This document shows positions 6,529 to 42,800 of a DNA stretch of 64,000 bases, piece after piece. Every line of letters begins with the position of its first letter. Positions within the stretch are counted from its first letter, which is position 1. The stretch is from Trypanosoma brucei (taxonomy: Eukaryota): assembly GCA_000002445.1 (NCBI GenBank), contig CP000068.1, positions 160,001-224,000 on the forward strand. The letters are read 5' to 3'. The position numbers were made by a program, and so were the translations under genes. A model generated the notes under the pieces. It saw nothing but the letters and a program-made list of their open reading frames with translations, was not told the origin of the DNA and did no database searches.

Positions 6529-6564
6529 AAATGAAAGGATAACGGTGCGATACGTATATCTCTT

Positions 6565-6612
6565 TTACAAAGAGAAAAAAAAAAGAAACAAATAAAACAA
6601 AACAAAGGAGAG
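6565..6612 (-). promoter_or_regulatory. Polypyrimidine tract (on minus strand) upstream of the stomatin-like CDS; candidate trans-splicing/polyadenylation signal
   Basis: Plus strand reads aaagagaaaaaaaaaagaaacaaataaaacaaaacaaaggagag immediately 5' of the minus-strand ATG at 6528. In trypanosomatids poly-Y tracts direct spliced-leader addition. Confidence 0.5.
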
Positions 6613-7252
6613 CACTATGGGGAGAAGGGTGATGAGGAAAGGAACAGTATGATATATGCATAGCAACAATAGCACCAACAACCGGAAATTATTTGAGGGA
6701 AAAGGGACGAGGCGTATGCACGCAATTATGTCGGGGGTTTTACCAAGATTTACTCCCAATGTTTGTTTTAATCCCGTTGTGAGGTGTGAGCGTAGATATC
6801 CGTCTATACGAATAGGTAAAAAAAAAAGTGGAAAGAAGGTGAAAATAGGGGGAAACGCTAGTAGATCAACATTAGGGAGAACTTAGAGGAAATAAGCAGA
6901 CCCGTTTGGCGACAACACCAGCATCAGAGTCCCTGCAAATTCATGACAGTAGTTGTCGTGACAACAGGTATAAAATATTTAACAATGTGTCCAAGCAAAG
7001 ACTGAACAGAACGGTTATGGAAGGAAAACAAAAAAGCAAATACAAAAACAAATAGCACGAAAGAGGTCACAGATGTATCAGTCGAGTTGAAAGTATGCCG
7101 TGGCCTCCAGTTATGTGGAAGAAACTCTCCAAGGGGTGACATAATAGGGCGTAACAAGAGTTTGCATACTTTCTTTTCAAATAAACACACACGCATACGT
7201 GCATGTATGCACTATACAAGCGCTGTTGACGACGCTAACATTACAAATTACA

Positions 7253-12914: not shown

Positions 12915-14432
12915 TTACCATTTATTCCCCGCACCCGTTCCCCACGCCTCCTCCCAGCACTTGGGCCTCCATCGCGTTGAGACGGGTGGAGGCTGAAATG
13001 GCTCCCGGGCGCCGTCCTTGTCAATGGGATTGCGACCTTCCCTAATGTCACCTAAGTCCGTCAAACCCAACTCCTTCCGAATCGCCAGCCGCTCGTCTTC
13101 TAACTGATCAGCCTCAATTCGGAGCCGCTCCAGCTCCGGAGTGGTGAGGTCCGGAACGGCATCATGGTATGGAATACCCAGGTCTGTCCTCTCCCAGTAG
13201 TGAGCAAATGGCTCACCATCTGGGTCATTTGGATCATCTGACGTGGGCTTGCGTACAGGGTGCTGCTTCTTATTCATCCGCACTTGACGTTTGTACTCAA
13301 GCTCTTGCCACGCCATGTTACGGAAAACGTGGCCCAACTCAGTCCGCATCACTTCAACTTCCTCTTCATTGTAAAAAAGATCCCCACGAACAAAGCCAAG
13401 GGTCCACGTAGCACCGCTCTTCGCCTTTTGAGTGTACTCGGTTTGTGGGTTGTGCTCAGTTTGTCGCAATGGTTTCGTGGCCCTGTGGGCATCCCCGTAA
13501 ACCTGATCATCATCAAGCTCCTGAAAGGTTTGTTGCGAGCGGTTCATGTGGGCCATTATGCGCATGAGTGCGTCTTCCACCTCCTCATCATCTAAGATCA
13601 TGGGACCGAAGTACGACTTCTTGTAGCTGCGACTATGCTCCTCCTCTGCCACACTGGGTGGGTCTCCGCGGTGACCGCGCATCCACCGCTCCCATAACCT
13701 ATCGTCTGTGGCCAGTGTCCCATACGGGAGGTGCTTCTTGTTGCTATCTTTGCGATACATGCGACGCTGTTCCTCCCGCCCCTTTTGGAACTGCCATGTG
13801 ACGGTAAACTTATTACCAAATCGGTCCTTCGCGATGAGGCGTTCCTGCGTGAAAAAGAAGCGGATGTAATTCCAGTAGAGCAGCTCCCACCACATAATGA
13901 TGCGGTTGTCAGCTAGCCCCGAAAAGGAATGCTGTAACTTTACACTTTTGTCACCAAATGCGTCAACAGAACGAGTATATGGCACACTAGTGTCCGACTC
14001 TTCACGGATGCGCTGCCGCGCAGCAGCGGCAACCTCAGGGCCGGAAGTTTGCTCCAACTCCGTTGTGTATGCCTCCAGCTTGCGCTCCTCCCGCTGCTGC
14101 AACGCTTCCTCCTCCAACTGACGCTTGGCTTTGGCGGCTAATAGCTCCTTCTCCTTAATTGCCCACGCTACTGCGTCCTCCTGCCTGCGTTGAGCATAAA
14201 CCAGCTTTGATGTGATATCACTTGTCTCGTCTGCCATGCCTCGGATATTCGAAAGAACGGTTGCTATTGTCAAGCGGTGCCTGCGGCTGACACAGTAGCA
14301 ACCACTCAAAGGCAGCGCAGGATGGCTTACAGCCGTCAACTCTGACGGATGCACAGTGGTCGCCCACACCAATGGGGATAGATGATATTTCCTCATTTGT
14401 GGCCGTTGCGCGTGCTTCTCACTCACCCCCAA
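12915..14432 (-). CDS. Hypothetical charged protein, 505 aa as ORF; an internal ATG at 14237 (MADETSDITSKLVYAQ…) is an alternative start
   Basis: Long minus-strand ORF with coding-like composition and E/K/R-rich coiled regions; no family recognised. Confidence 0.55.
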   Translation of the reverse strand: MGVSEKHAQRPQMRKYHLSPLVWATTVHPSELTAVSHPALPLSGCYCVSRRHRLTIATVLSNIRGMADETSDITSKLVYAQRRQEDAVAWAIKEKELLAAKAKRQLEEEALQQREERKLEAYTTELEQTSGPEVAAAARQRIREESDTSVPYTRSVDAFGDKSVKLQHSFSGLADNRIIMWWELLYWNYIRFFFTQERLIAKDRFGNKFTVTWQFQKGREEQRRMYRKDSNKKHLPYGTLATDDRLWERWMRGHRGDPPSVAEEEHSRSYKKSYFGPMILDDEEVEDALMRIMAHMNRSQQTFQELDDDQVYGDAHRATKPLRQTEHNPQTEYTQKAKSGATWTLGFVRGDLFYNEEEVEVMRTELGHVFRNMAWQELEYKRQVRMNKKQHPVRKPTSDDPNDPDGEPFAHYWERTDLGIPYHDAVPDLTTPELERLRIEADQLEDERLAIRKELGLTDLGDIREGRNPIDKDGAREPFQPPPVSTRWRPKCWEEAWGTGAGNKW

Positions 14433-15654
14433 AAAAAAAAAAAAACTGCTACCGCCCCCGCCGATACGTGCCCTTCTTCTATTTACGTACTTGTTTACGC
14501 CTTTACCGCTCTACTACCGTTGTGAATGTCCCGTTCTCACGCTACGCACCTTAGCAGCTCAAACTACACCCCAGCTGTACTATGTGGGACTATTGTGCAT
14601 GAATTCAGAAAAATGTGTGGGAGTTGTAAACAACAGCACTACTTCACTCGCACCAGAAAGTACCAACTGCAACTCTCTACACACGCACACGTCTGACAGT
14701 TGTTCGAGCTGACCGTCGAATTGGAAAGGAAGGGACGCATTTATATGCATAAATGGGGGACGATGAGGGGAGTGAGCAAAGCACGGAGCACAATAAAAAC
14801 GTCTAACGCACGGAGGTGATCACTTCCAATTGTAAAAGAGGGGGAGATAACCGCACACAAACGTACGTGGCGTGTTGTGCTCACTTCAACTTTCTCAGCA
14901 ACTCCTTTTGCCTGCTCACCTCCCTTGGCCTGACGCCCAAGCAGCCGAGAAACTGTTTGGGCCACGTGCACTTCACTCGTTGGAGAAAAACAGCAGCGAT
15001 AGCTTTTAAAAAGAAAATAATTTGGGGGCTCTATGGATCCTTTTGACAACAGCAGCACAAACAAGAATAAGCAATGGAAAAGAGGGACAGGAAAAAGTAA
15101 GAATGTGAAACGTTCAAACGGTACGAGTCACATTAATACAGTTTCGTTTGTGCTTTTACCATTATGGGGGCAACGAACTCTTATGGTCATCCGTTCACTC
15201 AAAACTGCACAATATGTACCCGTGGAGTTTTGTCTTGCATTGGCCCTTTACACGCACCATATACGAACACCTTCAGGACCTTTTGCGTTTCTTCGTGTCA
15301 AATGCCCGGCATATCTATGTTGCATTCCATAGGAATGCGATGCAAATACGTATCTATTTCACCGTCATGTAACCTCTCACGCAAACGTACGTGCTGCAAC
15401 GCCATGCCCCACCCTACCCGACGATCTGCACAACCCTATCGATATCTCACTTTTTTTCTTTATGGGTACTGCTTGACCCATCCTCTTTTAAAGGAAAAAA
15501 GACAGCAGAACAACACTGCCCGCGCAGAGCCCAGACGAACAGCCACCACAGCGGCACAAAGGTAGACTAAAAGAAGAGCAGCATACTTCATAGCGCCGCC
15601 ACCCTCTCGACTTTAGTTCTTCGTCCGCCTCAGGGGGGTAAACGAAGGGGAACG

Positions 15655-23104: not shown

Positions 23105-24316
23105 TCAAGCTTTTCGCTTACGATCAGCTTCAAGATTTCCCTTATTCACAATTGGCCATGAATCAATCTGTACCAAGAAGGGCAGGTACATGTATACCTT
23201 GTCGCGGTACCTCTTATCTTCTTCAATTGGGTTACGCTCAAGATACACGGTCTTCAAAGTGCTTGTGAAGCCACTTAACTTTCCTACCTCTTCCCAATCT
23301 GCTATATTTCCATCAGTGAGCCAAAACTCCTCAAGTTTGGGCATGGTTTGCGGATTGATCTCTTCAGCGTCGATTGAACATATCGAGTTGAAACTAAAAT
23401 CGATAATTTTGATTGTTGATAGGTGTCGCACGTTCCCAACAGAAGTAAGGCCGTTCTCGGACAAGTATACTTCCCTCAAATTAGGATTGGCCTTTGCTCC
23501 CAAGAAGTTTTCCGCATCAACAGAGGTAATTCGGTTTGCCTGCAAACTAAGGATCTCTAGCGAAACCAATTTGTGAAGCGCGGTACCAATGGAACTTATC
23601 TTATTCTTGCCGAGCCACAACTGTTTCAACTTCGTCAACTTCTCCAACCCGGAACCGATGGCACGTAAACGGTTGCCCCCTAATTCAAGTAACTCAAGGT
23701 TCACCAGAGAATCAAGATTTTTAACCTCTTTAATTTTATTTTCGACCAGATAAAGCTCTCTCAGCGTACCCCCGATGGAATCGAGTCCACCGATTTCACG
23801 AATCTGATTGTAACTTAGGTCCAATTTCGTGAGACATTTGTATGCGTTGGGGAGTGTTTTCGTCGTGGGCGGGTCACCAGGGACTGTTACTGTCTCGAAA
23901 AAATCGTTCAGCTTACGAATTTTGTTGTCGAAAAGATCCAACTCATCAAGGCGATCGGCGAGGTCCTCAGGAAACGGAATAAGATCATGCAAGAGATTCT
24001 TGCGCAAGGAAAGGGATGTGCATTCAGTCAACTTGTCAAGCTCAATTTCAGCCACTGAAAACAGGCGAATATTATTTATCTCTATGATTTTGCTCTTCGT
24101 ATCAATCCTAAGAATAGCCTCCGCCACCTGACGGTATCTATCTTCATCTCGAGTAATGCTTGGAGGCACTTCCTCGCCGTCACTTTCAATGTCCGTGCGT
24201 TTCTCAGAAGGTATCTCTTGAGCACAGAACATGGCCTCAAGGCCTAGCCTTAATTTTTGGTTCCGTTGCTCTTTTTCGTTGGCGTCCGGTTCTGATTTCC
24301 CACCCTCCTGTGACAT
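23105..24316 (-). CDS. Leucine-rich repeat protein, SDS22-like (protein phosphatase 1 regulatory subunit 7 family)
   Basis: At least 10 consecutive 22-residue LRRs of the SDS22 type (LxxLxxLxxLxLxxNxIxxIxx: …LTKLDLSYNQIREIGGLDSIGGTLRELYLVENKIKEVKNLDSLVNLELLELGGNRLRAIG…) plus a C-terminal LRR cap. The track ORF extends to 24508 but the N-terminal 64 codons are hydrophobic and low-complexity; ATG at 24316 (MSQEGGKSEP…) is the likely start. Confidence 0.75.
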   Translation of the reverse strand: MSQEGGKSEPDANEKEQRNQKLRLGLEAMFCAQEIPSEKRTDIESDGEEVPPSITRDEDRYRQVAEAILRIDTKSKIIEINNIRLFSVAEIELDKLTECTSLSLRKNLLHDLIPFPEDLADRLDELDLFDNKIRKLNDFFETVTVPGDPPTTKTLPNAYKCLTKLDLSYNQIREIGGLDSIGGTLRELYLVENKIKEVKNLDSLVNLELLELGGNRLRAIGSGLEKLTKLKQLWLGKNKISSIGTALHKLVSLEILSLQANRITSVDAENFLGAKANPNLREVYLSENGLTSVGNVRHLSTIKIIDFSFNSICSIDAEEINPQTMPKLEEFWLTDGNIADWEEVGKLSGFTSTLKTVYLERNPIEEDKRYRDKVYMYLPFLVQIDSWPIVNKGNLEADRKRKA

Positions 24317-24507: not shown

Positions 24508-24891
24508 CTATGAACTCGCATGTCCCCGGGTAGGGTCGGAATTCCCCGCCTGTTTCCTCTTCCTTTCGGCGTGTCTTCGCCGAATGCTCTTAACTCCGTG
24601 AATGATTTGTTTGCGCAGCTGTTTGAATCCCTTCTGTCTCTTATTGATCACATGCGGGAACTGAACAGCTGCAATTTGTTGTGCTAATGGTTTCTCAGCG
24701 ACGCGTTTAGTAACGGGCCCTAGTCCCATAGACTCCTCCAGCTTCAGCTGGTCGTCGTGCTTCTGCTGGAACCTCTTGCGTTTTATTTGGCGCGACCCCC
24801 GAAGACCCCGTGGGGTTTTCTTGCCTGTATTTTTACCCTGTGCGTGTGTCACGATGGCAACCCTCAGTCCTCTCCCGAATCCACGGCCCAT
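24508..24891 (-). CDS. Small very basic protein (127 aa from MGRGFGRGLRV…; K/R-rich, possibly nucleolar or ribosome-associated); function unknown
   Basis: ORF 24508..24981 in track; the hydrophobic junk N-terminus suggests the internal ATG at 24891 as start. Composition very rich in K/R/Q; no confident family match. Confidence 0.45.
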   Translation of the reverse strand: MGRGFGRGLRVAIVTHAQGKNTGKKTPRGLRGSRQIKRKRFQQKHDDQLKLEESMGLGPVTKRVAEKPLAQQIAAVQFPHVINKRQKGFKQLRKQIIHGVKSIRRRHAERKRKQAGNSDPTRGHASS

Positions 24892-24999
24892 TGAACCCGG
24901 ATTTCGTGTAGATGAATTAATACGTTCAGGTTCCCTCCAGTCCAAAAAAAAAAACAGTGTCGAGAAAGAGACAAAAGTCAATATGCAAACGCAGACGCA

Positions 25000-27900: not shown

Positions 27901-30900
27901 AGAGAAAGGGTGTTTTAATATCAGCCTTGAAGGCACACGAGCCTGTAATAAAGGTGGCATCACTCCTGCAATTTACAGTACGAATACTTTCTACAAGTCG
28001 ATGGAAAGAATGGTTGTCAGGATCCCGAAAGATCAACTGCGTAGCCTACTTCACCCACAACTGCCAAGGACTCATGCCCTCAACTGCAAGGGTTAAAGCA
28101 CGTTTGTTTAGTGTAATAATTGAGGCAGAATAGTCTGCACCTTACCTACTCCTACATATAGAAGAGATTTATGATAAAAGATATAATTAATTAAATGACC
28201 AATCTTAGGGTATCCCGGTAAGCTTTTTCAATGTAGATAAAACTCCCAATATTAAGACAATGAAAGAAACAAAACACTTACGATAAGGAATTGGTGAAAG
28301 CGTTCTCATCCCGCCTCCCGCGCTCCCTATCACAAGTTCCACCCTTTCGCTAAGTCCGATGGAAAAACTGCCCTCCTCCGTGAGATACCATCAGCGAAAT
28401 TCGCTAATGAAACAACATAGTCTCAAAGAGCCTCGATGCCTTCCTCCAGATAAGCATGATCTATTAAACTTACTTCTTGAACCGAAGCATCGGAGTGTGT
28501 GTTACCTTTTTTCGTGACATGCATAACTGTAGTATTATCCACACATACGTGAATATTATTAAGCAGGCTGCCCTGAAAAGCTCTCAATGCCAATGTCACT
28601 GCTCTCGCCTTGGTATGAGAGATACAATGTGGAGGTTGTTCTCACTGGCCTCCTGAAGCCCATACTTTCCCGCTGTCCTTAAAAAGTAAGGCTCCCCAAC
28701 CGTGTATAGAAGCATCGGTAACCGATGTTGCAGAAGTCAGTAATTACCTTGACGGCTTAACGGGTTCTTTTTCGATCAACCCGCTTAGTCACTCCTGCCC
28801 CATGCGGATTGCCTGGAGGGAAAGCCGTGCCATGTCGTTCTGCGCCAAGACACACCTGTTGAGCTCCGACAAGCGCCGTCTTACCATCTTTAAGAAAAAA
28901 TAATGTCGGAACAGAGAATCTCCCCGCACCCCCGCCGCATACATCATTCGGGATACTATGCTCTCCAAATTGTCAACAGTAACCCTCTCAGTGGGATAGC
29001 CTCCCTGAGCTTCCGCACCGTTTTTTTGCTCAATGGCACCATCTTTGAACCATGACCAAAGTGGACTCCAATGAAATCATATAGTGCGGTGATGGACTTG
29101 CTTTTCCATGAAGTTGCGCCGCGCTGTAACATGTTTCTTCTAATCACCTTGTTCCATCAGTTTACAACTTCCCGTGGACTGCTAATACGAATATTATCAA
29201 TCCACACATGTACTTTTAGCTACGAAGGCGCTGCATATTCAGCTTTCACTACTGCAGAGTCCCCGGCCAATACACACGGGGCCGTGTGTAAGACTCCCGG
29301 GCCACACTTGTAACCCATAGGAAGTCGGGCAAGTTCCACGAGCTTTCCACCTGCCGTCCGGCATAAGAAACCTGATCGGGTGTCCATCAGCAAGCCCGCT
29401 TTTAAGAAAACGAAGCTTTTAAATCACAAAGCGCTGCACCCTCATCATGGACAGCATCCAGGTAGCGTGGCACGTGTCCCAGAGGAACAATAGCTTCATA
29501 ATCGTCCTGTGCATTCTTAGACTTTGGCCATGTAATGATTCGCCCTCGACAACCCGTTGGCTTCTCTTCCAGCACCGTGAAGGGCACCACCCAACCCGTG
29601 GTAGGGTTGTTGGACACTTTCTGAATTGTACCCTCTCTTTCCACGGTGATAGTATTCTGGTCTGAAATCGTCAATTTTGGCTCGTATTCCCGACCTTCTT
29701 TCCTGGCCGGTCTGCGCATGGTCTCCCAAACATCATTGAAGAGCTGTAAATATTGACTATTCAGTCGTTGCTTGATCCATTTTAGCGATAAAGTCTCCAC
29801 ATTCATCTGTTGTTACGGTAACTCCTGTTGCTCAGTATCCGAGGCGACCTTGGTTTGATGGGTGCGTCGGAGAATGTTGTGTCTCTGAAATAAAGGTCCT
29901 GTCCTATTATTTTTATCGTTGGATTCTGAACCTTCCACAGTAACGTGGCCCACTCACCCTCCGTTTCTACATGAGCGCTGTTAGATTTACTGACTTGTTT
30001 AGCACAGCCACCCATGGCCCTAAATACCTAGTGGTGCTCCGACGAAATTCCATGGGGTCCGCGTGTTTTCCCATCTTGGCCAGAATGCGTGAGTCGAGGT
30101 CGTTTTCTATCACCGCTACGGTCGCATGAGGTAGAGACCCTCTTTTTTATAGAATGCATCGTCATTCCGTAAGGTTTCAGAATGTTTTCCATGTCCCTTC
30201 TGCTGATGGTGGTTAGTTTTTCTTCATCCGCCCTCCACCTTACGACTTTCTTCAACTTTTTGGCGTCCTCGCCCGCGATGACGACATTTCACGCTGCTCT
30301 GTGGGGATCTAACTTGGATGTCTTTGGGATGCCCCCCAGTCGACGATTAGTGCCTCCTCGTCCTGAGGATGAGCGACAAAATTTTCCTTTTGCGGCGACG
30401 CAATCTCTCCCCAACGACTGGCAGTGACCCAAGCCAGACGCATGGCCACTCGCTCCCTTTCCTGTTCCATTGTGTCGCTTATCATGTCCAGTTCCCACAT
30501 CTCCATGGGGCAGGCCTGCTTTATTGGTGGTTCTGCCACTTTTCTCTGCAAACCTTTCAAAAGGATTCTTGTTGGTGCCTTTTCCGCTGTCAGCATCACA
30601 AAAGAGTTCTTGTATACTGCACAGCGTTGCTTTTGGCCAGCTGCAAGCTCACAATGAAGACGGGAACATTCCCCTCGCTTGGCTCCACGTTGTGCTTTGC
30701 CACAGACTCGCAGAATCTCCTGAGAATCGACCCCAACTGCTCCCATATTGACTGTGTCCAAATTCTTTTTGCGATGTGATTCGCTTTTGAAGCCCACGCC
30801 ACCATAATCGTATCGTGGGTGGTTTTATAATGATAACTTCCTTTGCCGGTGTTTTCGTAGGGCGCAAAACTGGGGATGCCGTTTCTCTTGCTGGCTCTCT

Positions 30901-33900
30901 TCCCTCTGTGTCCTCCTCTACCATGAGACCTTTCCCCGGCAAGTTTTCCGTGGCATTTCTCCATTCGCTATTACCCACTTGTGGGTCCTTGGCCCCGTAA
31001 CCATGGACACGGATTCCAATATTTTCTCGGCCCCGAAGCTTACTGTTTCCGGGGCCGACATTCGCTTTTTGGCTTCCACGGAACCTTGGCATCCTTAACG
31101 AAGCATGACGTACTGTAGTGCCACAACTTCCCACATCGGAAGCATCGTATTCTGCTAACTTGGGAAGTCGGTTTTTGAACTTTGGGGTATGCTTGATGGT
31201 ATGGATCCTCGTCCCTCCTTGAGTCATGTACTGCCTTTGCAAACGCTTCCACTCGCACCCCCGAGTGGGCTCTCTCTGTTTGCAAGACTCGAAGATAAGT
31301 GTGAATCGACCTCCCGACTGTTATCCCACCTTCTGAGAGGCCTTCCAATCCTACTGCATTTATCCACGCCGCAAATTGCTCCCAGACGCATTGTAACCCG
31401 TGATCCGATTTTTGTGGTAATGGGAACAATTCTTTGTACGCAGTTAAAAAACTGTTCCGGTGATGTCTCTGTCATGTATTCGATTTCCCCTTCAAACGTC
31501 CGCATATTTTCTTCAGGGCGAAAACCCTTGTCCACAAAGTTATTTTTTAACCGCTGAATGCCTCTGATTCCCACCTTGGGGTTCCTTACATATTTACCGC
31601 TTGATTTCTGAGTAAACTGTGATTTGTATGACTCAAAAGTGAACTTTATTTCTATTCTACCTTTTCCTTTCGATCTGATTCATTCTTCACTCTCTCTCTT
31701 GTTCGACAACTGGATCCGTTTTATGTGTGGCGTCCGTATTTGCTAATATATTTCAGTGGTGTAATCCAGCTGTTATCGATTCAATGACAGCTTCCAACCC
31801 ATTGATATGGAAGAGCACCTGTTCCATTTCCCCTCTCAAAGCACAATTTTCTTGCATGAACCTTTCAACTTGCCCATTCAGTTCCATCGACTGGTTTTGC
31901 ATTCTCCAGTGCTCATCATTCATCTGTGCTCTTGTCATTTCGTACTGTTGGTATAAATTAGACTTATTTGCCTCTAGTGCTAGACATTCGTTACGAAACA
32001 TCTCTCTATTTTCTTCGAACATAGGCAACAATTCAATGTTTTAGGGCATATTGAAGGAAACAAACGAGGTCCGTAAATCGGCGAAATTTACCTGCCCATT
32101 GTCAAAAGTCACTCGAAGCTCTCCATTGTCAAACCTCGGAAAACCGTCTACATGTACCGCTGAATTTCCAAAAGGGGGACAATAGTTGAATGAAAATGTG
32201 GTCCGACCGCACTGTTTCACAAAAGTCCTTATTTCTTTCAAACTTATTTCCCATTCGGCATCCGATATAGTTGGAGGGGTTGTCGTTAGCATCTCTCAAA
32301 ACTTACAGCGATAACTTACTTTTTAAAAAATTACTTACCCTTTTAAAAAACTTTCCTCCGTAATAGTTTTTCTATGCATATATAAGAAAGGAAAGAACGA
32401 ATAACAAAGAAAGTGGTAAAGATGGACCATTCCTTTCGCAAGCTCCCATTACAAAAGAAAAAAGGCAGAGCAGGCATTTGTGGATTATGCAAGAGCGTCC
32501 GAGTCAGTGGATCGTGTGTAAATCACTGTGGCGCTAAGTCGCTGCAAGTATATTCTCACCTAAAGAGGTGAATGGGACGGTTCCTGTACAGTTCAAACCC
32601 CAGAGTGAGGACAAACAAGACCTTGTCAAACGCTAGTTCCCCAACCTGCGGGGTGCCGCAACGATCCGCTGCCTGGATCAATGCTGCTCATATTCAGAAT
32701 GGACCTCCTCAGCCTAAAGATAAGTAAAGCATCAGGAATTAGAAACAGCTTCCTTGCAAACAACCTAATCATCATACGCGGAGACACGGGTCTAAAAAGC
32801 ATCTGTAAAATGTCACAACAAGGAATCGGCTGCAATGCGCGGTGGCCCATAAAACCATGTGATGACGTGTGTGTGAATGTGTGCTGGAAAGAAAGTGCAC
32901 ATGCCTCGGGATCATGCATGCTAGTACCTTTTAATTCCGTGAAAACAGCAAGAAGATAAAGGAAAACAAAAGATGTGGGGCCGCCAGATCTAACACTTCG
33001 GTCATGTGAGGAAGCAGAGAGGCACAAAAAGGGCAACGGGGGGTTCACAAAAGGGACCACCAAAGTTGCAGGTCATCTCATCCATTTGTCCCAAAGCGTC
33101 CCCGCCACGGGGAGCAATACGAGACAAAGATCTGCTTTACCTGCATATTTCGCCTACGTTATGCAATCGCGCCGCGGCTCAGTGGCTAACCTAACGATAA
33201 AAGCGCATCAATGGGAAAGGAAAGGAGCATGGAAAGCACCCCAAACAGGGAGCAAAGCACAGACAACGTACAGAGGGAACTACAGCCGCCATATATCTAT
33301 GGTAAAATGTTTGAACAAAGGCAATCACTATGGGAACGCATGCCGCGACGTGTCTCGGGTAACCTCCAAGGCGGTTCTTTAGAAGCGAAAAGGAGACCTG
33401 TCTGAGGAAGCGGTGGAGAGCAAAGAAAGGAAAAAGATTAAATTGGCCCTTTCGTCTACCGACCGTACCGACTGGGTGGGCGGTTGAGGAAACGCAACGA
33501 CACGGGTCGCTCAAAGCGCGGCAGGAAGAAAATTTCTCCGAAAACCCACAGGACAAATCACCAGGAAAATAAGGCATGGAGGTGGAATGTCAAATGTGCC
33601 CGAGGAAGTTGCAGAGAAAGGGGGAATTGGCAGGCTACAAGTGCGACAAACCGAATCACCGTGTCAAAAACCGATGACATGGTCATGCGAACAAGCTGAA
33701 AACAAAGTTCCCCATTCACCGCAATAAATGCTGTTCGCACTGTGTAACAAGACACGGCCGAAGGAGTACCAGCGCCAAATTGTAAAAAAAAAAAAGAAGC
33801 GCATAAACAATTAAAGGGCTGATTATGAAAACGAAGCGAAAGGAAAAAGAGAATGGCAAAAAGGAAGACAGCAAAAACATTGAACTTCCTGAGGGATCAG

Positions 33901-36900
33901 GGCAGGCATTGCAAAAGTCACTGACTGAAACGCAGAGTAGAACACGATACGAAAGAGGATGGTGCGATTATTAGCGTGTTCATATGTCGAAACCCATTCT
34001 TTACACAGGGAACAAACACTTGGTGGAAGTTGGAATGAAAAAAGATACAAATGATGAAGCATCTCTGGAATCAAAGACAGCTCCAAAGACCATCCAACGC
34101 TCGCAGGACAAAATGCGTGCAACAAAGTCACATCACTGAACTCATGCAGTGGAAGGGCGAATGCAAAATAGGAAAAAAAGCACAACACTGTAAAATGTGG
34201 GTACTACTCACCTTCCCCAAAACCGTCACAACACCCCTCCCCAGGAAGCGCTCCGTAGAGAAAGCGGTCGAAAATGCCGCAAACAGATGGTTGCCGTTTC
34301 GCATGCAACTGGCACGTTTTCTATGCAAGCTATTTAACCAAAGGGGTTTGAGCTAAACACAGAGGAGCGCCAACAGACTCAAGATAACTGTCAAAGGAAT
34401 TCACACTGAAACGACCATGGGTTGGGAAAAAGGAAAAGGGGGACTACTTCGCCGACGGCCAAGCCTACCTACATTCCGCCACGCCATACTTTGAAGAACC
34501 CGGCGTGTGAGTGCTGCTTGCGGCCGAGGGCACACAACTCATTGGTGCAAAAGGTGACAGTCACGCGGCGGTGTGGAACCGCAAGACTCGATCAGATACT
34601 AGGGGAATAACTTTACTGCGGCGCCATGTCGGTAAGTAGCTTTGGGCCAACAAAAAACTGGCGATAGCACCAAGTGTGCGTGCCAACATCGGGAGCTCAC
34701 ACCTGATGCGTCACCCCTCAAGGGAAGTGCGGGGCGCACCAGTGGATGTCATAGAACTTCACCGAGCAGTGATGGTCAACATCTCCTCGATATGAGTGTG
34801 TGGAACGTACGGGGTGAGCCCATTCGCCAACAGCTTCTCTGCATTCATAGACCAAATCCACACGGAGAAATTTTCTCAGGACAGCCGACGAACTCTGACG
34901 GAAGAATTGGAACTGGTGGAACGTGCACGAATTGGAGAAATGTCTGAGGTGCGGTATCCGTGTTGCAACCGCAGGGGTCGTTCCTTGAATCACAGCCACA
35001 CCACAACACTCAACACCTCAACTTACTAAACTCGATAAGGGGATTGCGAGGTGTCATCGCTCATTGAATGGGGGAACTGGTCGACATGCAGAGGTAGCTT
35101 CCAGGCCGCATGACAAATGAAGGGTGTTTCGTGCCGTTCTGAAAGCACAAGGCTCCGGTCCGTTGCAACTGGTGCGTCAAGAAAGTGTACGCGTCGGGGC
35201 CATTCAACCTCCTGGCGGCTATATGAGACGGTGCTCCAAAACCGACTACCGGCAGGAGAAACATTTCGTTGATCCCTACGCGCCCCGGGCAACAGATTAC
35301 TTATCCTCGCCCTTAAGGCATTCGACGTGAGTTTATGGAATGGAATCGTACCTGCTGCACGGGAGAGTTATCAATAATTTCCATACAGAAACACCCTAAG
35401 AAGGCGGAGCGTTTGGATGTCCACGAGGCGGTGAAAGCGATGAGTTGCGCGCGCAAAGCCATCGAGAACATCGTTGGTAATGGAATTGGGGACTTTATGG
35501 GGGAGGGGCCCACACTAGAACCGGGATTTCGGCCGGGTCGCCCCACGCTAAGGCTGCTTCAGCGCTTCCAGATGGCCCTTGGTCACCCGTCGCCGTCGCA
35601 CATGGGAGCGGCATTCATAGTTTACGCGAATGCCTTGGATGTCACACGGAAAGCGGCTGATGGTTTTATTTTACAGCAGAATGAAAGGAACAAAAGTTGG
35701 CAAAACACTGTTAAACAGCCGGACGCTTGCAAGAGGCATAAAGCAACTGCATCAGAGCGCACTGTGCCCCTCAGCCTCGGACTCGCAGAGCCAACTCTTG
35801 GAAGCATTTCCGCTATCACATGACGGCTTTTTTGCGGATAATTTGGCGCTATCGGCGCGATACACGAAGAGGGACCCCGAAGACCGCACACCGCAGGGCA
35901 GCCCCGGCGTTGTGATACAATGGCAGCAAAAGTGACTTATGTACGCCCGCACGCCGGTGACGAAATGCAAACTGCTCAGTTACATTGAACACTTATCGTC
36001 AATGTAACATCACGGTGGGGCTCGGGCTGGGGTTGGAAAAGTACCGAAGATGTTTTGGGACGGCGCGCTGCGCAAACACAGCGAATAGCAAGCCGCAGGG
36101 CGCTGAAAATAGAAACCGTTTGGGCGACGGCGTATCACCCAGATGAGGCGTTGCGTGCTTTACACTTCCGGTTTTTACAATTACGTGACACGTGCAGAGC
36201 TGATGTGTGGCATTAGTGCGTCTCAGAAGGTATTCGAGAGGCGACCGGAGCGGAGCGGCACAAAGACAGCCAAACCATCGAGGACGTATCGCACGCGCAC
36301 TATACAACCCCACCCGTAACTTCGTGCCGGGACGGAAGCCGCTGATCCAAACTTCTCCAACGCCTTCCTTTTCAATGCAACAGGGCCTTCCGCGGGAAGA
36401 TAAGGCCCGTGTGCGCAAACTGTCCCGGAGAGGCTTAGATCGGCGAATGGACATTCTTAAACCAGAGGTCCGGCCAGACCCTCAGCCCAAGTGAGGACGA
36501 AAAAACGATACATCAGGTCAACAAAAGCGGCGGCGCACTTGCACTGGCGGTGGGCCTGCGAAAGGCACCGAATCCCTTCTTAATTCACAAGGCGGTGCTG
36601 CCCAGCCTCTCGATATACCCGCTTTCGTTCTCCACCATGCCGGAGGCGAGCGCAGTTACCATTACTGACCCGTCCCTGCACAAATTGCGGTGGTCAGCTG
36701 TGACAATACCGGGCAGGAACAATTGCATTAGACCACAGTTTGTACTCCCCTGCTGCGGCGTGGCATTGAACGAAGGCGCGCGGCGAAATTGCGAAGAATG
36801 TCGCTGGCATGTCACAGTTGCCCGACCGGGGGTTTGCAGACACCGCGGCCTATTCGAAGCGTTTGTTGTGATCTGGGGAAATATACTCGGGGGCCCACCG

Positions 36901-37900: not shown

Positions 37901-37978
37901 AAAAAATTAAGAATTGAACAAAACACAATAAACAAACACAAAACATGCTGAAACCAGCGACAAATGGGTATGATTGTG

Positions 37979-39813
37979 CAACACTGTTTTTGCATAATCA
38001 TACGCATGAATGCGTATTTGACGTGAAAATACGCAATAATGCACAATTTGTGAACAAACATGCAACATTGTGCAGGTTGTGCAAGAATGCGTGTTTTACA
38101 CCAAAAACACCTTACATGTTGCATTGCAACACTGTTTTTGCACAATCATACGCATGAATGCGTATTTGACGTGAAAATACGCAATAATGCACAATTTGTG
38201 AACAAACATGCAACATTGTGCAGGTTGTGCAAGAATGCGTGTTTTACACCAAAAACACCTTACATGTTGCATTGCAACACTGTTTTTGCACAATCATACG
38301 CATGAATGCGTATTTGACGTGAAAATACGCAATAATGCACAATTTGTGAACAAACATGCAACATTGTGCAGGTTGTGCAAGAATGCGTGTTTTACACCAA
38401 AAACACCTTACATGTTGCATTGCAACACTGTTTTTGCACAATCATACGCATGAATGCGTATTTGACGTGAAAATACGCAATAATGCACAATTTGTGAACA
38501 AACATGCAACATTGTGCAGGTTGTGCAAGAATGCGTGTTTTACACCAAAAACACCTTACATGTTGCATTGCAACACTGTTTTTGCACAATCATACGCATG
38601 AATGCGTATTTGACGTGAAAATACGCAATAATGCACAATTTGTGAACAAACATGCAACATTGTGCAGGTTGTGCAAGAATGCGTGTTTTACACCAAAAAC
38701 ACCTTACATGTTGCATTGCAACACTGTTTTTGCACAATCATACGCATGAATGCGTATTTGACGTGAAAATACGCAATAATGCACAATTTGTGAACAAACA
38801 TGCAACATTGTGCAGGTTGTGCAAGAATGCGTGTTTTACACCAAAAACACCTTACATGTTGCATTGTAACACTGTTTTTGCACAATCATACGCATGAATG
38901 CGTATTTGACGTGAAAATACGCAATAATGCACAATTTGTGAACAAACATGCAACATTGTGCAGGTTGTGCAAGAATGCGTGTTTTACACCAAAAACACCT
39001 TACATGTTGCATTGCAACACTGTTTTTGCACAATCATACGCATGAATGCGTATTTGACGTGAAAATACGCAATAATGCACAATTTGTGAACAAACATGCA
39101 ACATTGTGCAGGTTGTGCAAGAATGCGTGTTTTACACCAAAAACACCTTACATGTTGCATTGCAACACTGTTTTTGCACAATCATACGCATGAATGCGTA
39201 TTTGACGTGAAAATACGCAATAATGCACAATTTGTGAACAAACATGCAACATTGTGCAGGTTGTGCAAGAATGCGTGTTTTACACCAAAAACACCTTACA
39301 TGTTGCATTGCAACACTGTTTTTGCACAATCATACGCATGAATGCGTATTTGACGTGAAAATACGCAATAATGCACAATTTGTGAACAAACATGCAACAT
39401 TGTGCAGGTTGTGCAAGAATGCGTGTTTTACACCAAAAACACCTTACATGTTGCATTGTAACACTGTTTTTGCACAATCATACGCATGAATGCGTATTTG
39501 ACGTGAAAATACGCAATAATGCACAATTTGTGAACAAACATGCAACATTGTGCAGGTTGTGCAAGAATGCGTGTTTTACACCAAAAACACCTTACATGTT
39601 GCATTGTAACACTGTTTTTGCACAATCATACGCATGAATGCGTATTTGACGTGAAAATACGCAATAATGCACAATTTGTGAACAAACATGCAACATTGTG
39701 CAGGTTGTGCAAGAATGCGTGTTTTACACCAAAAACACCTTACATGTTGCATTGTAACACTGTTTTTGCACAATCATACGCATGAATGCGTATTTGACGT
39801 GAAAATACGCAAT
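37979..39813. repeat. Tandem satellite array, 148-bp unit × ~12.4 copies, 62% AT, nearly identical units with a few recurrent SNPs
   Basis: Exact periodicity of 148 bp seen directly (caacactgtttttgca at 37979, 38127, 38275 …). The six-frame track shows the same 81-aa and 65-aa ORFs repeating every 148 nt on both strands. Unit GC counted by hand is 56/148. Confidence 0.95.
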
Positions 39814-42800
39814 AGTTTGCATTTTATGCTTTAATGTTTATGTTGCTCATGCTTTTTTTCAATTTGCATATTTTGCGTGAGAAGGGTTGTTGTAATTAGA
39901 CTTGTTTTCACCTGATCGATGTATTAATGGATATGAAATGGGAAAGGTGTCATGATGTGCTGCCGTGTAAGTGTGAAAATTAATTTTTTTAGTTTTTTTG
40001 TTTGCCGTGTTCTAAAGCAGTGTGTTGTTGTTTCTTTTTGATGCTGTCTTTATTTTTTTGTAGCGATTTTAGCGAAGCGGATGGAAATGTTGAGTTTGTG
40101 ACATTCTTTTTTTTTTTTAGTGTGTCCTGTTTTCGCGAGAGCAAATGTTTAGGAATACCGAATTTGTTGTATTGTTTTCTGTTTTGCTGTTAATGGCGAG
40201 GGGTCTTTCATGGAAAGTGTTTTCGAGACCCACAAGGGTTTATATTGCTTTACAAAGTGTACCGGAATTGCTTGGTGCCACGAAAGGGGGACGTGATTGT
40301 AAGCGAAATAATGTGCCACGTAGTTGCACGGAATAACGTGATGGTAGGAAAAATCTGCGAAGAGGGGGGTCATACGAGGAGCTGCGTACGGAAGGCGATT
40401 GGGACCTGTCGCAACAATTTCACTACTTAAAGGCCAGTCTTTTTATGTTGCCATTTACTGCCGGCTTGGGCGCCGTGAGAGCGGGGGGGGCAGGGGACGT
40501 TTAGCGGCAGATGAATGGTTCGAAAAGGCATAATTTGCTCAATTTCCATCAAAGCAGCGAAAAGTGAAACATATTCGATAAAGCCAGTCTGCGCCACTCA
40601 CCAATGACAATGCCAATTTTTGTTTTTAATGTGCCGTTTCGTCGATCACATGACCGGGCACCGCCACTTTATGGAGATCCTGTTGGGATATATATATAAA
40701 TATATTGTGCGTCCTTTCGAGCTGTTGGCGACATTTTCTCATGCTCTAGGTATTAAGTTCCTGTGAGTGACGCTGCATACCTGCTTGCAGCTCGTTGTTC
40801 TTTTATTAAGCGTTAGCGCTGAAACGGGCCTCGCACAGTGTTGTTATTGTGGTTTGAGGCGCCAACGAATAACTGCAGAGCCGTTGTCTTTCGCAATCCT
40901 GCATGAAGAAAGCCTCCCGCGAACAAAACGCAGCTGTTCCAAAGAGGCCGTATGATGCGGTTTTACCTCATGTACAACCTGACGGAACGTTGGGAACGCC
41001 TTCGGCCATTGTGAACAAATCGCAAAACCACGTCAAGGCAACCACCTGTCCTTACCAGTGTGCGTGAGGTTGCCATAATTTGCATCATAAATTGCTCCCC
41101 GTAGATGCCGATGGATCTTTGCGGTTGCTTCATCCATGCAGTGACTCGCATGTGAAATGCATGACCATCCTATTGTTTGGTTGCAGAACACAGGCTGGAG
41201 TGCTAAACGCATCCTTCCCAAGCCTCGACGCGTCGTCCGCCGCAACAGAAACGGTATCCACGGCTTCAACACTTTTCCGCAACCGCCCGCGTCCTGAACC
41301 GCCAGTGTGCTCCTCTTGCCCGACCTCCCTTTTCTTTTTTTAAAAGTTTCATCGCGTCCGATTAACTGCTGCTCTCCGTTCTTACGCTTCGTGGTGGTCT
41401 CTTAGTTCTCAACCCATCTCACTTTCCGCGCAGTATAGGACTGTGGCACCGCGCAATCAACTGATACGCATATTTGAACAGGCTTTGCAGTAGCTTTAGC
41501 TTCATCCAATGCCAAGCCGTCAGTATTTTCCCTATTCCCCTTCTTTCCAGCGATGGTGGCTGGAAACTCAGTTATATGAATGTGTTCTTAACCGCGGAAG
41601 CGAAAAGAAGCAACCTTCAAAAACTTTCCTCCCTTTAAATGTTTCATTCCGCAGCCAAACCTTTGTTAGTGAGGGCATTCGTCTTGTTTCCTTCCTGACT
41701 TAATGCATATCCAACTTAGCTTCGTCACTGGCATTCTCTGCACTCCTGCATGTTCCACCCTCATTTTTTTTTCTTCTTCCAAACCCATCACTATTTATCC
41801 GTTTCATGACACACACGCATATATGTATTGTCCATGCGCCATTTGGTCGTCGTCTCCGCATTCCTTCGGCAAACGTTTACTTTCATTATCTTTTAAGAAT
41901 TTCCTTTTGAATAATTAAATGTGTATAAGTAAAAAACTTGACGGAAGAGATAAGGGAGTGAGATGAGGTGCAATGACGCCAATCAGTTGTTACCTCCCAC
42001 CCCCAACGCACGGCCACGCGCATGCGGTGCGTTTGGAGCAGGTGTGAAGCAAAAGACAAAAGGAAAGTTATAATTTAGCAATTTCTGCCCACTGATCGCG
42101 TGCGAACGCACTGTATTAACCTTAAACCCGTGTGGTTGGCGGGAAAGATTATCTTTGACGCGTGATGGAAAGGGGGGGGGGGGAGCGGCGCGGGCGGGCA
42201 CCACATACATCTCTGTGTGTTGTCGTCTTTTTTCTTCAAATACTGCTTTTCTTTTCTTTTCTTTTCATTCCTTTTTAAAACCCGCAGCTCACAACGAACT
42301 AATTTCGCAAACTAAATACACCCCGTGAATTTCCCCCCTTGCTCCTTGCGCGTTGAGAGGGGTACTTCCGTTATTTCCCTCATGGCCGTTTCTTTTTTTT
42401 TTCCCCTTAAACTTCTTTTCCCCTTTTAATTCATTAAGAAAGAGGAATCAAAACGCACACCCGCAATTCTCGCTCGTTTTTTTTTTGCGGCCATAAGGGC
42501 GGTTTTTTTTTCAAATTTATTTATTTAAAAATAAATAAATATATATATATAGATAGAACGCTGAACGTGTAGGACTGTTTCCCCCCTTTCCCACCTCACC
42601 ACCATTAACTCGCTTTTTTCCTTTTTTTCGTAATACATGTCATCTTATTCCCTCAACTTTCCTTTCCATCATGTCATGGGTTTTAAAATAAAGGGAAGCA
42701 CAAACAGACAAACTCAGCACCACTGGAACATCCCTGATATACCAAAAGCAAAAGAAAAAACTTGTATAGATACGTTGGAATATGAGTTTTGTGCTGATGA

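What the first reader, a model, noticed from the sequence alone, without database searches (positions are those of the whole stretch)
28950..32300. Frameshifted retroelement-like ORF chain carrying a CCHC zinc knuckle
Ten minus-strand ORFs tile 3.3 kb with successive frame changes, the pattern of a once-continuous long ORF now degenerate. One carries a clean CX2CX4HX4C knuckle (CFRCGKLWHYSTSC). A gag-type knuckle followed by ~3 kb of pol-like coding capacity resembles the VIPER/DIRS-like or SLACS/CRE ORF1 layout more than ingi. Vestigial VIPER-like elements have been reported in T. brucei but are poorly catalogued. The surrounding 25-37.9 kb may contain further decayed copies.
Basis: partly seen in the sequence, partly recalled or inferred. 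Interest (0 to 1): 0.5.

Follow-up and report, generated by a model that had tools for sequence, protein, structure and literature searches.

The report
Dead VIPER retrotransposon beside a centromere
The flagged stretch is one decayed copy of VIPER, a known trypanosome retrotransposon that uses a tyrosine recombinase. It sits next to the chromosome 5 centromere repeats of Trypanosoma brucei, so it is an ordinary genomic fossil of a family already catalogued in this species.

Summary
The only CX2CX4HX4C knuckle in the whole 64-kb window lies at 31144-31103 on the minus strand, inside a chain of frame-shifted minus-strand ORFs. The window is T. brucei brucei TREU927 chromosome 5.

Frameshift-tolerant comparison shows a single, nearly full-length but dead VIPER element (DIRS order, VIPER-like subgroup) spanning at least 32292 to 28121.

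- **ORF order:** it is colinear with an intact T. theileri VIPER copy: gag-like ORF ending in the knuckle, then tyrosine recombinase, then reverse transcriptase/RNase H.
- **RT/RH:** the stitched sequence hits T. grayi and T. theileri VIPER proteins at E down to 4e-170.
- **Recombinase:** it hits their (mis-named "trans-sialidase") VIPER recombinases at E 1e-77. The family profile and a pLDDT-90 model match Cre, Xer and integrases.
- **Decay:** the copy carries at least 8 frameshifts and at least 12 premature stops. No terminal split repeats could be found.
- **Age:** it is orthologous in T. b. gambiense.

VIPER remnants in T. brucei are published: Lorenzi 2006; Ribeiro 2019 lists two degenerate chromosome 5 copies; a 2025 survey counts 76. 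The finding is therefore already known.

Side notes: the copy lies 5.7 kb from the 148-bp centromeric array, and its RT segment is unusually divergent between subspecies.

The parts
28121..32292 (-). Minimum extent of the degenerate TbVIPER copy, from the gag-like start codon to the end of the 3' tail. The 5' untranslated part and any A1 repeat upstream of 32292 could not be delimited.
   Evidence: Colinear tblastn hits of T. theileri gag, YR and RT/RH and of T. grayi RT/RH, all within 28285-32292. The 3' limit comes from where similarity to a second copy ends.
31040..32292 (-). gag-like ORF1 remnant: an N-terminal domain, a coiled-coil segment and a C-terminal CH-box. It is broken into three frames, with in-frame stops after FNMP (32043-32041) and after GLHH (31755-31753). 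The original stop, after RPRKQ, is at 31042-31040.
   Evidence: The 421-aa T. theileri gag-like protein (L001:5603-6868) aligns from residue 1 (MLSTT.. against MLTTT..) to residue 421 (..RPRKQ in both). Weak coiled-coil Pfam hits. No hit in the large protein database.
31103..31144 (-). CX2CX4HX4C zinc knuckle (CH-box), CFRCGKLWHYSTSC.
   Evidence: Unique in the window, against 0.03 expected. It aligns with CYRCGRIGHYSSTC of T. theileri gag, which passes Pfam zf-CCHC at 21.2 bits against a cut-off of 20.8. The window's own knuckle gives only weak zf-CCHC_5 hits, E 0.12-0.99.
29967..31176 (-). Tyrosine recombinase ORF2 remnant, spread over frames 0->2->1->0->1, with stop codon 29969-29967 after LTALM. 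Codons for the conserved positions survive:
- Arg in AWVTASRWGEI (30434-30402)
- Lys in PKTSK (30327-30292)
- HSIK(K)RG, interrupted by a 1-nt insertion in an A-run (30159-30123)
- KH in MGKHADP (30074-30054)
- Tyr in TTRYLG (30035-30018)
   Evidence: The stitched YR hits T. grayi and T. theileri 'trans-sialidase' (VIPER YR) at E 1e-77 and 6e-75. HSP chain. The N-terminal extension matches T. vivax P0026 (31176-31000). Coordinates. Fold evidence for the family.
28285..30364 (-). RT/RNase H ORF3 remnant. Its N-terminal extension overlaps ORF2 in another frame, as in intact copies.
- RT core, about 29899-28990: motif VPFTVLEEK (29587-29561), motif A CDLKASF (29428-29408), motif B RLPMGYKCGP (29327-29298), motif C VWIDN (29207-29181).
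- RNase H, about 28722-28378: TDAS (28722-28690), catalytic Glu changed to Lys in HTKARAV (28617-28597), VDNTT (28545-28525), NFADGISR (28404-28378).
- Lesions: two frameshifts and nine in-frame stops in the core.
   Evidence: T. grayi 'TcC31.12' E 4e-170, 55% identity, 100% coverage; T. theileri proteins carrying PF00078 and PF13456. Alignment A4. HSP and stop counts. Coordinates. The profile hits Ty3 and caulimovirus RT/RNase H in the PDB.
28121..28284 (-). Non-coding 3' tail of the element.
   Evidence: The first 92 nt of a T. equiperdum scaffold are 94.6% identical to 28212-28121 and then continue into unrelated sequence. This suggests a second copy whose similarity ends at 28121.

Best explanation
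The interval is one pseudogenised, nearly full-length copy of VIPER, the tyrosine-recombinase retrotransposon of trypanosomatids (DIRS order, VIPER-like subgroup). It lies in T. brucei brucei TREU927 chromosome 5.

Shown here:
- Three ORF remnants lie on the minus strand in the canonical order: gag-like protein with a C-terminal CCHC knuckle, tyrosine recombinase, then an overlapping RT/RNase H.
- Each remnant is homologous and colinear with intact VIPER copies of other trypanosomes.
- The copy is inactivated by at least 8 frameshifts and at least 12 premature stops.
- It has lost the RNase H catalytic Glu and has no detectable terminal split direct repeats.
- The same copy, with shared frameshifts, is present at the syntenic site in T. 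b. gambiense. It therefore inserted and died before the subspecies split.

Inferred from what is established for DIRS-type elements, not tested here:
- When active, the element was transcribed.
- The gag-like protein bound the RNA through its knuckle.
- RT/RNase H copied the RNA, using the split repeats to form a closed circular double-stranded DNA.
- The tyrosine recombinase inserted that circle by Cre-like site-specific recombination, without target-site duplications.

Today the copy does nothing autonomous. It is neutral filler in the 13-kb gene-free, retroelement-rich stretch beside the chromosome 5 centromeric 148-bp array.
For: - **Organism and locus:** exact matches of flanking proteins to TREU927 chromosome 5, Tb927.5.5xx-6xx.
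- **RT/RH:** E 4e-170 to T. grayi; E 1e-150 to 3e-136 to T. theileri proteins, two of them carrying PF00078 or PF13456.
- **YR:** E 1e-77 and 6e-75.
- **Layout:** T. theileri locus L001 shows gag 5603-6868, YR 7001-7960 and RT 8203-9153 on one strand. That contig interval is listed as a VIPER copy in Ribeiro 2019's supplementary alignment.
- **gag:** end-to-end alignment, including the knuckle.
- **VIPER rather than TATE:** the window's YR core scores 245 against T. cruzi Dm28c VIPER and 357 against T. theileri VIPER, but only 24-53 against TATE. The RT/RH scores 484 against T. cruzi VIPER.
- **The YR family is a true tyrosine recombinase:** the profile hits Cre at E 2e-8, aligning the catalytic Arg, Lys and HSxxxGA boxes. 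The AlphaFold model has pLDDT 89.6. The top 37 Foldseek PDB matches are all Cre/Tre, Xer or integrases at probability 1.0.
- **Lesion counts:**
- **Orthologue in T. b. gambiense:** present, with shared YR frame breaks.
- **Literature:** VIPER is reported in T. brucei and only degenerate copies are known.
Against: - No split direct repeats (A1 ... B1-A2-B2) could be found. The 5' boundary and the target site therefore remain undefined.
- Pfam does not recognise the window's own fragments above threshold. The best hits are RVT_3 at E 0.033 and zf-CCHC_5 at E 0.12, so the domain calls rest on homologues.
- The gag-like region has no relatives in the large protein database. Its homology rests on two T. 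theileri ORFs at 30-39% identity.
- Direct DNA-level comparison with the T. cruzi type element or the Repbase TbVIPER consensus was not possible.
Confidence: 0.95

Rival explanations
1. It is a remnant of TATE, the sister tyrosine-recombinase retrotransposon of kinetoplastids, rather than VIPER.
For: TATE has the same three-ORF layout and the same VWIDN motif C in its RT.
Against: The recombinase core is clearly VIPER-type: AWxTASRW, PKTxKxDPHR, HSIKRGA, KHxDP. It scores 245-357 against VIPER and 24-53 against TATE. Surveys find no TATE in T. brucei.
Confidence: 0.02
2. It is a decayed non-LTR element (SLACS/CRE ORF1 plus pol, or ingi/DIRE) whose zinc knuckle merely mimics a gag.
For: T. brucei centromeric zones are reported to hold DIRE/INGI elements. 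SLACS/CRE copies may carry zinc-finger-like structures.
Against: A tyrosine recombinase lies between the knuckle and the RT. The RT/RNase H groups with VIPER and, at profile level, with Ty3 and caulimovirus RT/RNase H. No spliced-leader RNA gene or any other Rfam family is present in the window. No endonuclease or non-LTR RT signal was found.
Confidence: 0.01
3. It is a domesticated, VIPER-derived host gene or set of genes that is still expressed, like the VIPER-derived gene reported in Leishmania (Viannia).
For: A VIPER-derived gene exists in L. braziliensis. The locus is conserved between T. b. brucei and T. b. gambiense.
Against: Every ORF is broken: at least 8 frameshifts and at least 12 stops. 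The longest ORF on the homologous path is 162 aa. The RNase H Glu is lost. Divergence from T. b. gambiense is equal to or higher than in the non-coding flanks, with further lineage-specific indels. None of the ORFs is annotated in TREU927.
Confidence: 0.02

Closest known systems
VIPER of Trypanosoma cruzi (type element; potentially active copies in strain Dm28c, e.g. MBSY01000735.1)
   Same: - Same ORF order: gag-like, then YR, then overlapping RT/RH.
- CX2CX4HX4C box in the gag-like ORF.
- Same recombinase boxes.
- Same RT motifs, including VWIDN.
- Same RNase H boxes.
   Different: - The T. cruzi copies have intact ORFs (446, 338 and 945 aa) and 173-bp and 219-bp split direct repeats. The window copy has neither.
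- Protein identity is only about 34-42% in the conserved blocks.
- No SIRE-like short derivative is seen in the window.
VIPER copies of T. theileri (NBCO01000001.1:184039-200881 = locus L001; NBCO01000004.1 = L002) and T. grayi ('TcC31.12')
   Same: These are the closest relatives found: 55% (RT/RH), 60-61% (YR) and 30-39% (gag) amino-acid identity. They are colinear from the first to the last codon of each ORF.
   Different: They retain long open ORFs, whereas the window copy is shattered. Database names for them ('trans-sialidase', 'TOR kinase', 'TcC31.12') are annotation carry-overs, not functions.
TATE (telomere-associated transposable element) of Leishmania and other kinetoplastids
   Same: Same architecture and proposed mechanism. 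It is the sister group within the 'VIPER-like' subgroup.
   Different: It has a different recombinase clade (MMWxxAARxxD, PSxRKGA, GHxxxxTLxRYLG). The window's YR scores near background against it. TATE is absent from T. brucei.
DIRS1, Ngaro and PAT elements, and Cre/Crypton-type tyrosine recombinases
   Same: - They integrate by a tyrosine recombinase instead of a DDE integrase.
- They lack a protease.
- Their RT/RNase H is of the LTR/pararetrovirus type.
- The YR family has a two-domain Cre-like fold with the Arg, Lys, His, His and Tyr positions.
   Different: - VIPER-like RTs carry WIDN in place of YxDD in motif C.
- The recombinase has HSIKRG where Cre has HSARVG, so Lys sits at the position of Cre Arg292 with Arg next to it.
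- ORF order and repeat structure differ from DIRS1.

Membership tests
VIPER (DIRS order, VIPER-like subgroup) | Three ORFs on one strand in the order gag-like, tyrosine recombinase, RT/RNase H, with ORF3 overlapping ORF2 | tested here: met
   The colinear HSP chain runs 32292->31043 (gag), 31176->29970 (YR) and 30364->28285 (RT/RH). The RT/RH N-terminal extension overlaps the YR in another frame. The T. theileri reference locus has the same layout.
VIPER (DIRS order, VIPER-like subgroup) | RT/RNase H homologous to VIPER RT/RH | tested here: met
   E 4e-170 to T. grayi, whose sequence appears as Tgr_1414 in Ribeiro's RT alignment. Local score 484 against T. cruzi Dm28c VIPER RT/RH. The conserved motifs are present.
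VIPER (DIRS order, VIPER-like subgroup) | Recombinase of the VIPER clade rather than the TATE clade | tested here: met
   Scores 245-357 against VIPER YRs and 24-53 against TATE YRs taken from the published alignment.
VIPER (DIRS order, VIPER-like subgroup) | ORF2 is a genuine tyrosine recombinase (fold and catalytic residues) | tested here: met
   At family level: the profile hits Cre at E 2e-8; the model has pLDDT 89.6; Foldseek top hits are all Cre, Xer or integrases; R, K, H, H and Y are near-invariant. The window keeps these codons, but in different frames.
VIPER (DIRS order, VIPER-like subgroup) | gag-like ORF1 with a CX2CX4HX4C box (present in Trypanosoma and Leptomonas VIPERs) | tested here: met
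   The knuckle at 31144-31103 aligns with the T. theileri gag knuckle. The motif is described for VIPER gag. It is unique in the window.
VIPER (DIRS order, VIPER-like subgroup) | Split direct repeats: A1 at the 5' end and B1-A2-B2 at the 3' end | tested here: inconclusive
   No repeat of 20 nt or more links the 5' and 3' flanks, and only chance-level matches (E >= 1) appear in a sensitive blastn. The 5' boundary is unknown and the copy is old. The literature finds these repeats only in a few young copies.
VIPER (DIRS order, VIPER-like subgroup) | Insertion without target-site duplication | not testable with these tools
   The element ends cannot be fixed to the base without other T. brucei copies or an empty site.
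Autonomous (potentially active) VIPER | Three uninterrupted ORFs | tested here: not met
   At least 8 frameshifts and at least 12 in-frame stops, and the RNase H Glu is changed to Lys. This copy is a fossil.
SLACS/CRE site-specific non-LTR retrotransposons | Insertion in a spliced-leader RNA gene, a non-LTR RT with a restriction-like endonuclease, and no recombinase | tested here: not met
   No SL RNA or any other Rfam family in the window. The RT is VIPER-type. A tyrosine recombinase is present.
ingi/DIRE non-LTR retrotransposons | AP endonuclease plus non-LTR RT in a single long ORF, with a poly(A) tail | tested here: not met
   No such domains on the minus strand of 28121-32292. All homology is to VIPER.

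The most novel reading that the evidence does not exclude
VIPER remnants may be a shared, ancient component of trypanosome centromeric domains, not random debris. In T. cruzi, the regions needed for mitotic stability on chromosomes 1 and 3 contain degenerate VIPER/SIRE. Here a VIPER fossil lies 5.7 kb from the T. brucei chromosome 5 centromeric array, whereas published descriptions of T. brucei centromeres mention only DIRE/INGI.

Together with the mosaic, roughly 10%-divergent RT patch between subspecies, this could mean two things:
- VIPER's recombinase once targeted centromeric chromatin.
- The dead copies still exchange sequence by ectopic gene conversion, perhaps during repair of centromere-proximal breaks.
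Probability: 0.1. Interest if true: 0.45.

Novelty: already known. Interest (0 to 1): 0.15.

Why it matters
The practical value is for annotation. About 4.2 kb of unannotated 'ORF noise' in the gene-free stretch next to the chromosome 5 centromere can be labelled as a TbVIPER pseudogene. The 'hypothetical protein, unlikely' ORFs called there in T. b. gambiense can be discounted.

It also documents that the pericentromeric retroelement zone of a T. brucei chromosome holds a tyrosine-recombinase element, as in T. cruzi, and not only ingi/DIRE. This is a small addition to the picture of trypanosome centromeres. It opens no new question by itself.

Tried and rejected
- **Pfam on the ten individual ORFs:** nothing meaningful. 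On the stitched domains, only sub-threshold RVT_3 and zf-CCHC_5 hits.
- **Large-database search with the stitched gag:** no hits.
- **Seven-sequence YR profile (alignment A1) against the PDB:** only spurious hits.
- **First AlphaFold run with a six-sequence alignment:** failed at pLDDT 35.6. It worked after the alignment was deepened with the representative search.
- **Search for terminal or split direct repeats:** none.
- **Flanks 24.5-28.3 kb and 32.3-38 kb:**
  - X-masked plus-strand frames of part of the 32.3-38 kb flank gave no Pfam hit. The 24.5-28.3 kb flank and the minus-strand frames of both flanks were not scanned after the refusals.
  - blastn and tblastx found no similarity to the rest of the window.
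  - A by-eye non-LTR RT candidate gave no PDB hit. 'DIRE in the flank' therefore stays unverified.
- **Exact-sequence look-up of the VIPER ORFs:** not annotated anywhere.
- **Look-up of the 2127-aa neighbour for a third Trypanozoon locus:** nothing on record. The T. equiperdum scaffold found through the LRR protein ends inside the element.
- **Exact 20-mers of the element in Ribeiro's sequence supplements:** none found; that file is truncated in the library.
- **Literature search for 'TcC31':** unhelpful.
- **Rfam and tRNA scans of the window:** empty.
- **Explanations considered and rejected:** TATE, SLACS/CRE, ingi/DIRE and a domesticated gene (see rival explanations).

Full report
**Where the window comes from.** Eight of the long ORFs in the window are identical to annotated proteins of Trypanosoma brucei brucei TREU927 on a 1,608,198-bp contig (chromosome 5). 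They include a stomatin-like protein, Tb927.5.540, V-ATPase subunit D, two acidic phosphatases, an ISG-like protein and a trans-sialidase. The flagged interval lies in a 13-kb stretch with no annotated gene. That stretch runs from an LRR-protein gene ending at about 24.3 kb to a tandem array at 37977-39814.

**Checking the observation.** The peptide CFRCGKLWHYSTSC is encoded at 31144-31103 on the minus strand.
- It is the only CX2CX4HX4C match in all six frames of the 64-kb window. Block-shuffled sequence yields 0.03 matches on average.
- The minus strand of 28.3-32.3 kb is covered by short ORFs in alternating frames.

**What it is.** Pfam saw nothing in the individual ORFs and only sub-threshold hits in stitched translations. 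Homology searches were decisive.
- **RT/RNase H.** A 492-aa conceptual protein stitched from three frames (29806->28333, ending at LAKGWNL) matched T. grayi 'TcC31.12' at E 4e-170 with 55% identity and full coverage. It also matched several T. theileri, T. melophagium, T. vivax and Leptomonas proteins, some carrying Pfam RVT_1 or RVT_3. More distant matches came from Diplonema and metagenomic proteins with RT_RNaseH domains.
- **Recombinase.** A 285-aa stitched middle segment matched proteins mis-named 'trans-sialidase' in T. grayi and T. theileri at E 1e-77 and 6e-75.
- **Reference locus.** In T. theileri the 319-aa 'trans-sialidase' lies between a 421-aa ORF and an RVT_1-bearing ORF on the same strand (locus L001). 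That contig interval (NBCO01000001.1:184039-200881) appears, with the same recombinase sequence, among the VIPER copies in the supplementary alignment of Ribeiro et al. 2019.
- **gag.** The 421-aa ORF is the gag-like protein. It ends in a CCHC knuckle that passes Pfam zf-CCHC. By tblastn it aligns with the window from its first codon (32292) to its last (31043), with knuckle on knuckle and RPRKQ-stop on RPRKQ-stop.
- **One copy only.** All tblastn hits of these relatives fall inside 28285-32292.

**VIPER, not TATE or a non-LTR element.** I compared the window with sequences printed in Ribeiro's supplements.
- The window's recombinase core scores 245 (42% identity) against T. cruzi Dm28c VIPER and 357 against T. 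theileri VIPER. It scores only 24-53 against TATE recombinases.
- The RT/RH scores 484 against T. cruzi VIPER.
- The RT/RH profile also reaches Ty3 and caulimovirus RT/RNase H in the PDB.
- No spliced-leader RNA gene, tRNA or other Rfam family is present in the window. This, with the homology results, disposes of the SLACS/CRE alternative.

**Is ORF2 really a tyrosine recombinase?** Sequence evidence from single proteins is weak: Pfam Phage_integrase reaches only E 0.069. I therefore collected 578 relatives with an exhaustive profile search and aligned 51 of them.
- The profile hits Cre recombinase at E 2e-8. It aligns the AWKTASRW box with Cre's catalytic-Arg box, the KT with Cre's Lys201 region, and HSIKRGA with Cre's HSARVGA.
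- An AlphaFold model of the T. theileri protein built on this alignment reached pLDDT 89.6.
- Its best 37 PDB matches by Foldseek are all Cre/Tre, Xer or phage and transposon integrases at probability 1.0.
- The near-invariant residues are the expected Arg, Lys, His, His and Tyr. Lys (followed by Arg) sits where Cre has Arg292.
- The window keeps all of these codons, but they are now scattered over four frames.

**State of the copy.** Relative to intact relatives:
- The gag region is split over three frames and has two in-frame stops.
- The recombinase is split over five segments, and one break is a 1-nt insertion in an A-run inside HSIK|RG.
- The RT/RNase H core is split over three frames and has nine in-frame stops.
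- The total is at least 8 frameshifts and at least 12 stops.
- The RNase H catalytic Glu is Lys (HTKARAV).
- The RT motif C reads VWIDN rather than YxDD. This is the norm for the whole VIPER/TATE clade and is visible in the published alignments, so it is not a lesion.
- No split direct repeats could be found between the 5' flank and the 3' end.

**Age and other copies.**
- T. b. gambiense DAL972 carries the same element at the syntenic position (locus L003). The recombinase frame breaks are the same, and there are a few lineage-specific indels. The insertion and most of the decay therefore predate the subspecies split.
- The flanks are about 99% identical between the two genomes. Identity falls to 81-93% in a mosaic block at about 28500-30050, within the RT/RNase H region. 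The likeliest cause is gene conversion from a paralogous VIPER copy. An assembly chimera or an old polymorphism cannot be excluded.
- A T. equiperdum scaffold reaching this locus starts with 92 nt that are 94.6% identical to 28212-28121. It then runs into unrelated sequence, followed by an N-gap. This looks like the 3' end of another copy and suggests that the element ends at about 28121.

**How it worked.** By analogy with DIRS-type elements (established knowledge, not tested here), an active VIPER is transcribed and its RNA is bound by the knuckle-bearing gag-like protein. RT/RNase H reverse-transcribes it into a circular double-stranded DNA with the help of the split repeats. The tyrosine recombinase then inserts that circle without target-site duplication (layout and lack of duplications as summarised). 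This copy can do none of that any more.

**Comparison with what is known.**
- VIPER was reported in T. brucei and T. vivax by Lorenzi et al. 2006 (cited).
- Ribeiro et al. 2019 found 36 recombinase and 58 RT/RH tblastn hits, and no gag hit, in TREU927. They classed all analysed copies as degenerate. Their list includes two chromosome 5 copies: Tb927_05_v5.1_239065_255241 and 115202_131660. The first spans 16,177 bp. If that listing includes roughly 6-kb flanks, an assumption I could not verify, about 4.2 kb is left, which fits this copy. I could not confirm the identity.
- A 2025 survey counts 76 RepeatMasker VIPER copies in T. brucei and no TATE.
- The CH-box in VIPER gag is described in the literature.
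- The finding is therefore a correct recognition of an already known, already catalogued element.

**Context.** The 148-bp x 12.4 array at 37977-39814 is the chromosome 5 centromeric repeat of Obado et al. 2007 (148-bp unit, 62% AT, between Tb927.5.600 and Tb927.5.610). It is also known as CIR147.
- The VIPER fossil lies 5.7 kb from this array.
- Published descriptions of T. brucei centromeric zones mention DIRE/INGI elements. Degenerate VIPER/SIRE is noted at T. cruzi centromeres.
- The rest of the gene-free stretch could not be classified.

**Verdict.** It is a single dead copy of a known family. Interest is low. The only mildly new points are its place beside the centromere and the divergent RT patch.

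Noticed in passing
window 37977-39814: A tandem array of a 148-bp AT-rich unit, 12.4 copies with 99% matches. It matches the chromosome 5 centromeric repeat of Obado 2007 (148 bp, 62% AT, between Tb927.5.600 and Tb927.5.610), also called CIR147, which is a known siRNA source. The assembly almost certainly under-represents it, since restriction mapping suggests 50-75 kb.
   Followed up: yes
window 28500-30050 versus L003 (T. b. gambiense) about 13530-15090: Inside the VIPER RT/RNase H region, identity between T. b. brucei and T. b. gambiense drops to 81-93% in a mosaic block, while the flanks are about 99% identical (143 mismatches in the three 500-bp bins spanning 28500-29999). The likeliest cause is ectopic gene conversion from another VIPER copy. 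An assembly chimera or an old polymorphism is also possible.
   Followed up: partly
L004 (T. equiperdum CZPT02000067.1) 1-349; window 28212-28121: The scaffold begins with 92 nt that are 94.6% identical to the 3' tail of the VIPER copy. It then has 247 nt of unrelated sequence and a 10-N gap before the orthologous sequence resumes at window 28180. This probably represents the 3' end of a different VIPER copy with its own flank, misplaced during scaffolding. The assembly breaks inside the element.
   Followed up: partly
window about 35335-36300, plus strand: By eye there are motifs reminiscent of a very degenerate non-LTR reverse transcriptase (…EPGFRPGRPTLRLL…AAFIVYANALDV… and …GFFADNLALSA…). 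They lie in a GC-rich segment (33-37.9 kb) that is A-rich on the plus strand. This could be the DIRE expected at T. brucei centromeres, but Pfam, PDB and self-similarity searches gave nothing.
   Followed up: partly
window 33191-33577 (minus strand) and L003 gene calls: T. b. gambiense DAL972 annotates many short 'hypothetical protein, unlikely' ORFs across this gene-free stretch. One is 100% identical to a window ORF, and several lie over the VIPER remnant. These are almost certainly spurious gene calls on retroelement debris.
   Followed up: partly
window 23105-24316 (minus strand): A 403-aa leucine-rich-repeat protein gene lies near the edge of the gene-free centromeric stretch (one short, uncharacterised ORF at 24508-24981 lies between them). 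Obado 2007 also drew an LRRP gene next to the chromosome 1 centromeric domain.
   Followed up: no
proteins P0022, P0023, P0024 (T. grayi and T. theileri) and P0002, P0006, P0010: In public databases, VIPER recombinases are named 'trans-sialidase' and VIPER RT fragments are named 'Target of rapamycin (TOR) kinase' or 'TcC31.12'. These misleading annotations propagate between trypanosome genomes.
   Followed up: partly
alignments A3 and A4 (VIPER-like YR and RT families): Two features hold across the whole clade. RT motif C is WIDN rather than YxDD. The recombinase has HS-I-K-R-G where Cre has HS-A-R-V-G, so Lys sits at the Arg292 position. Both are visible in published alignments, but the papers I could read do not discuss them.
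   Followed up: partly
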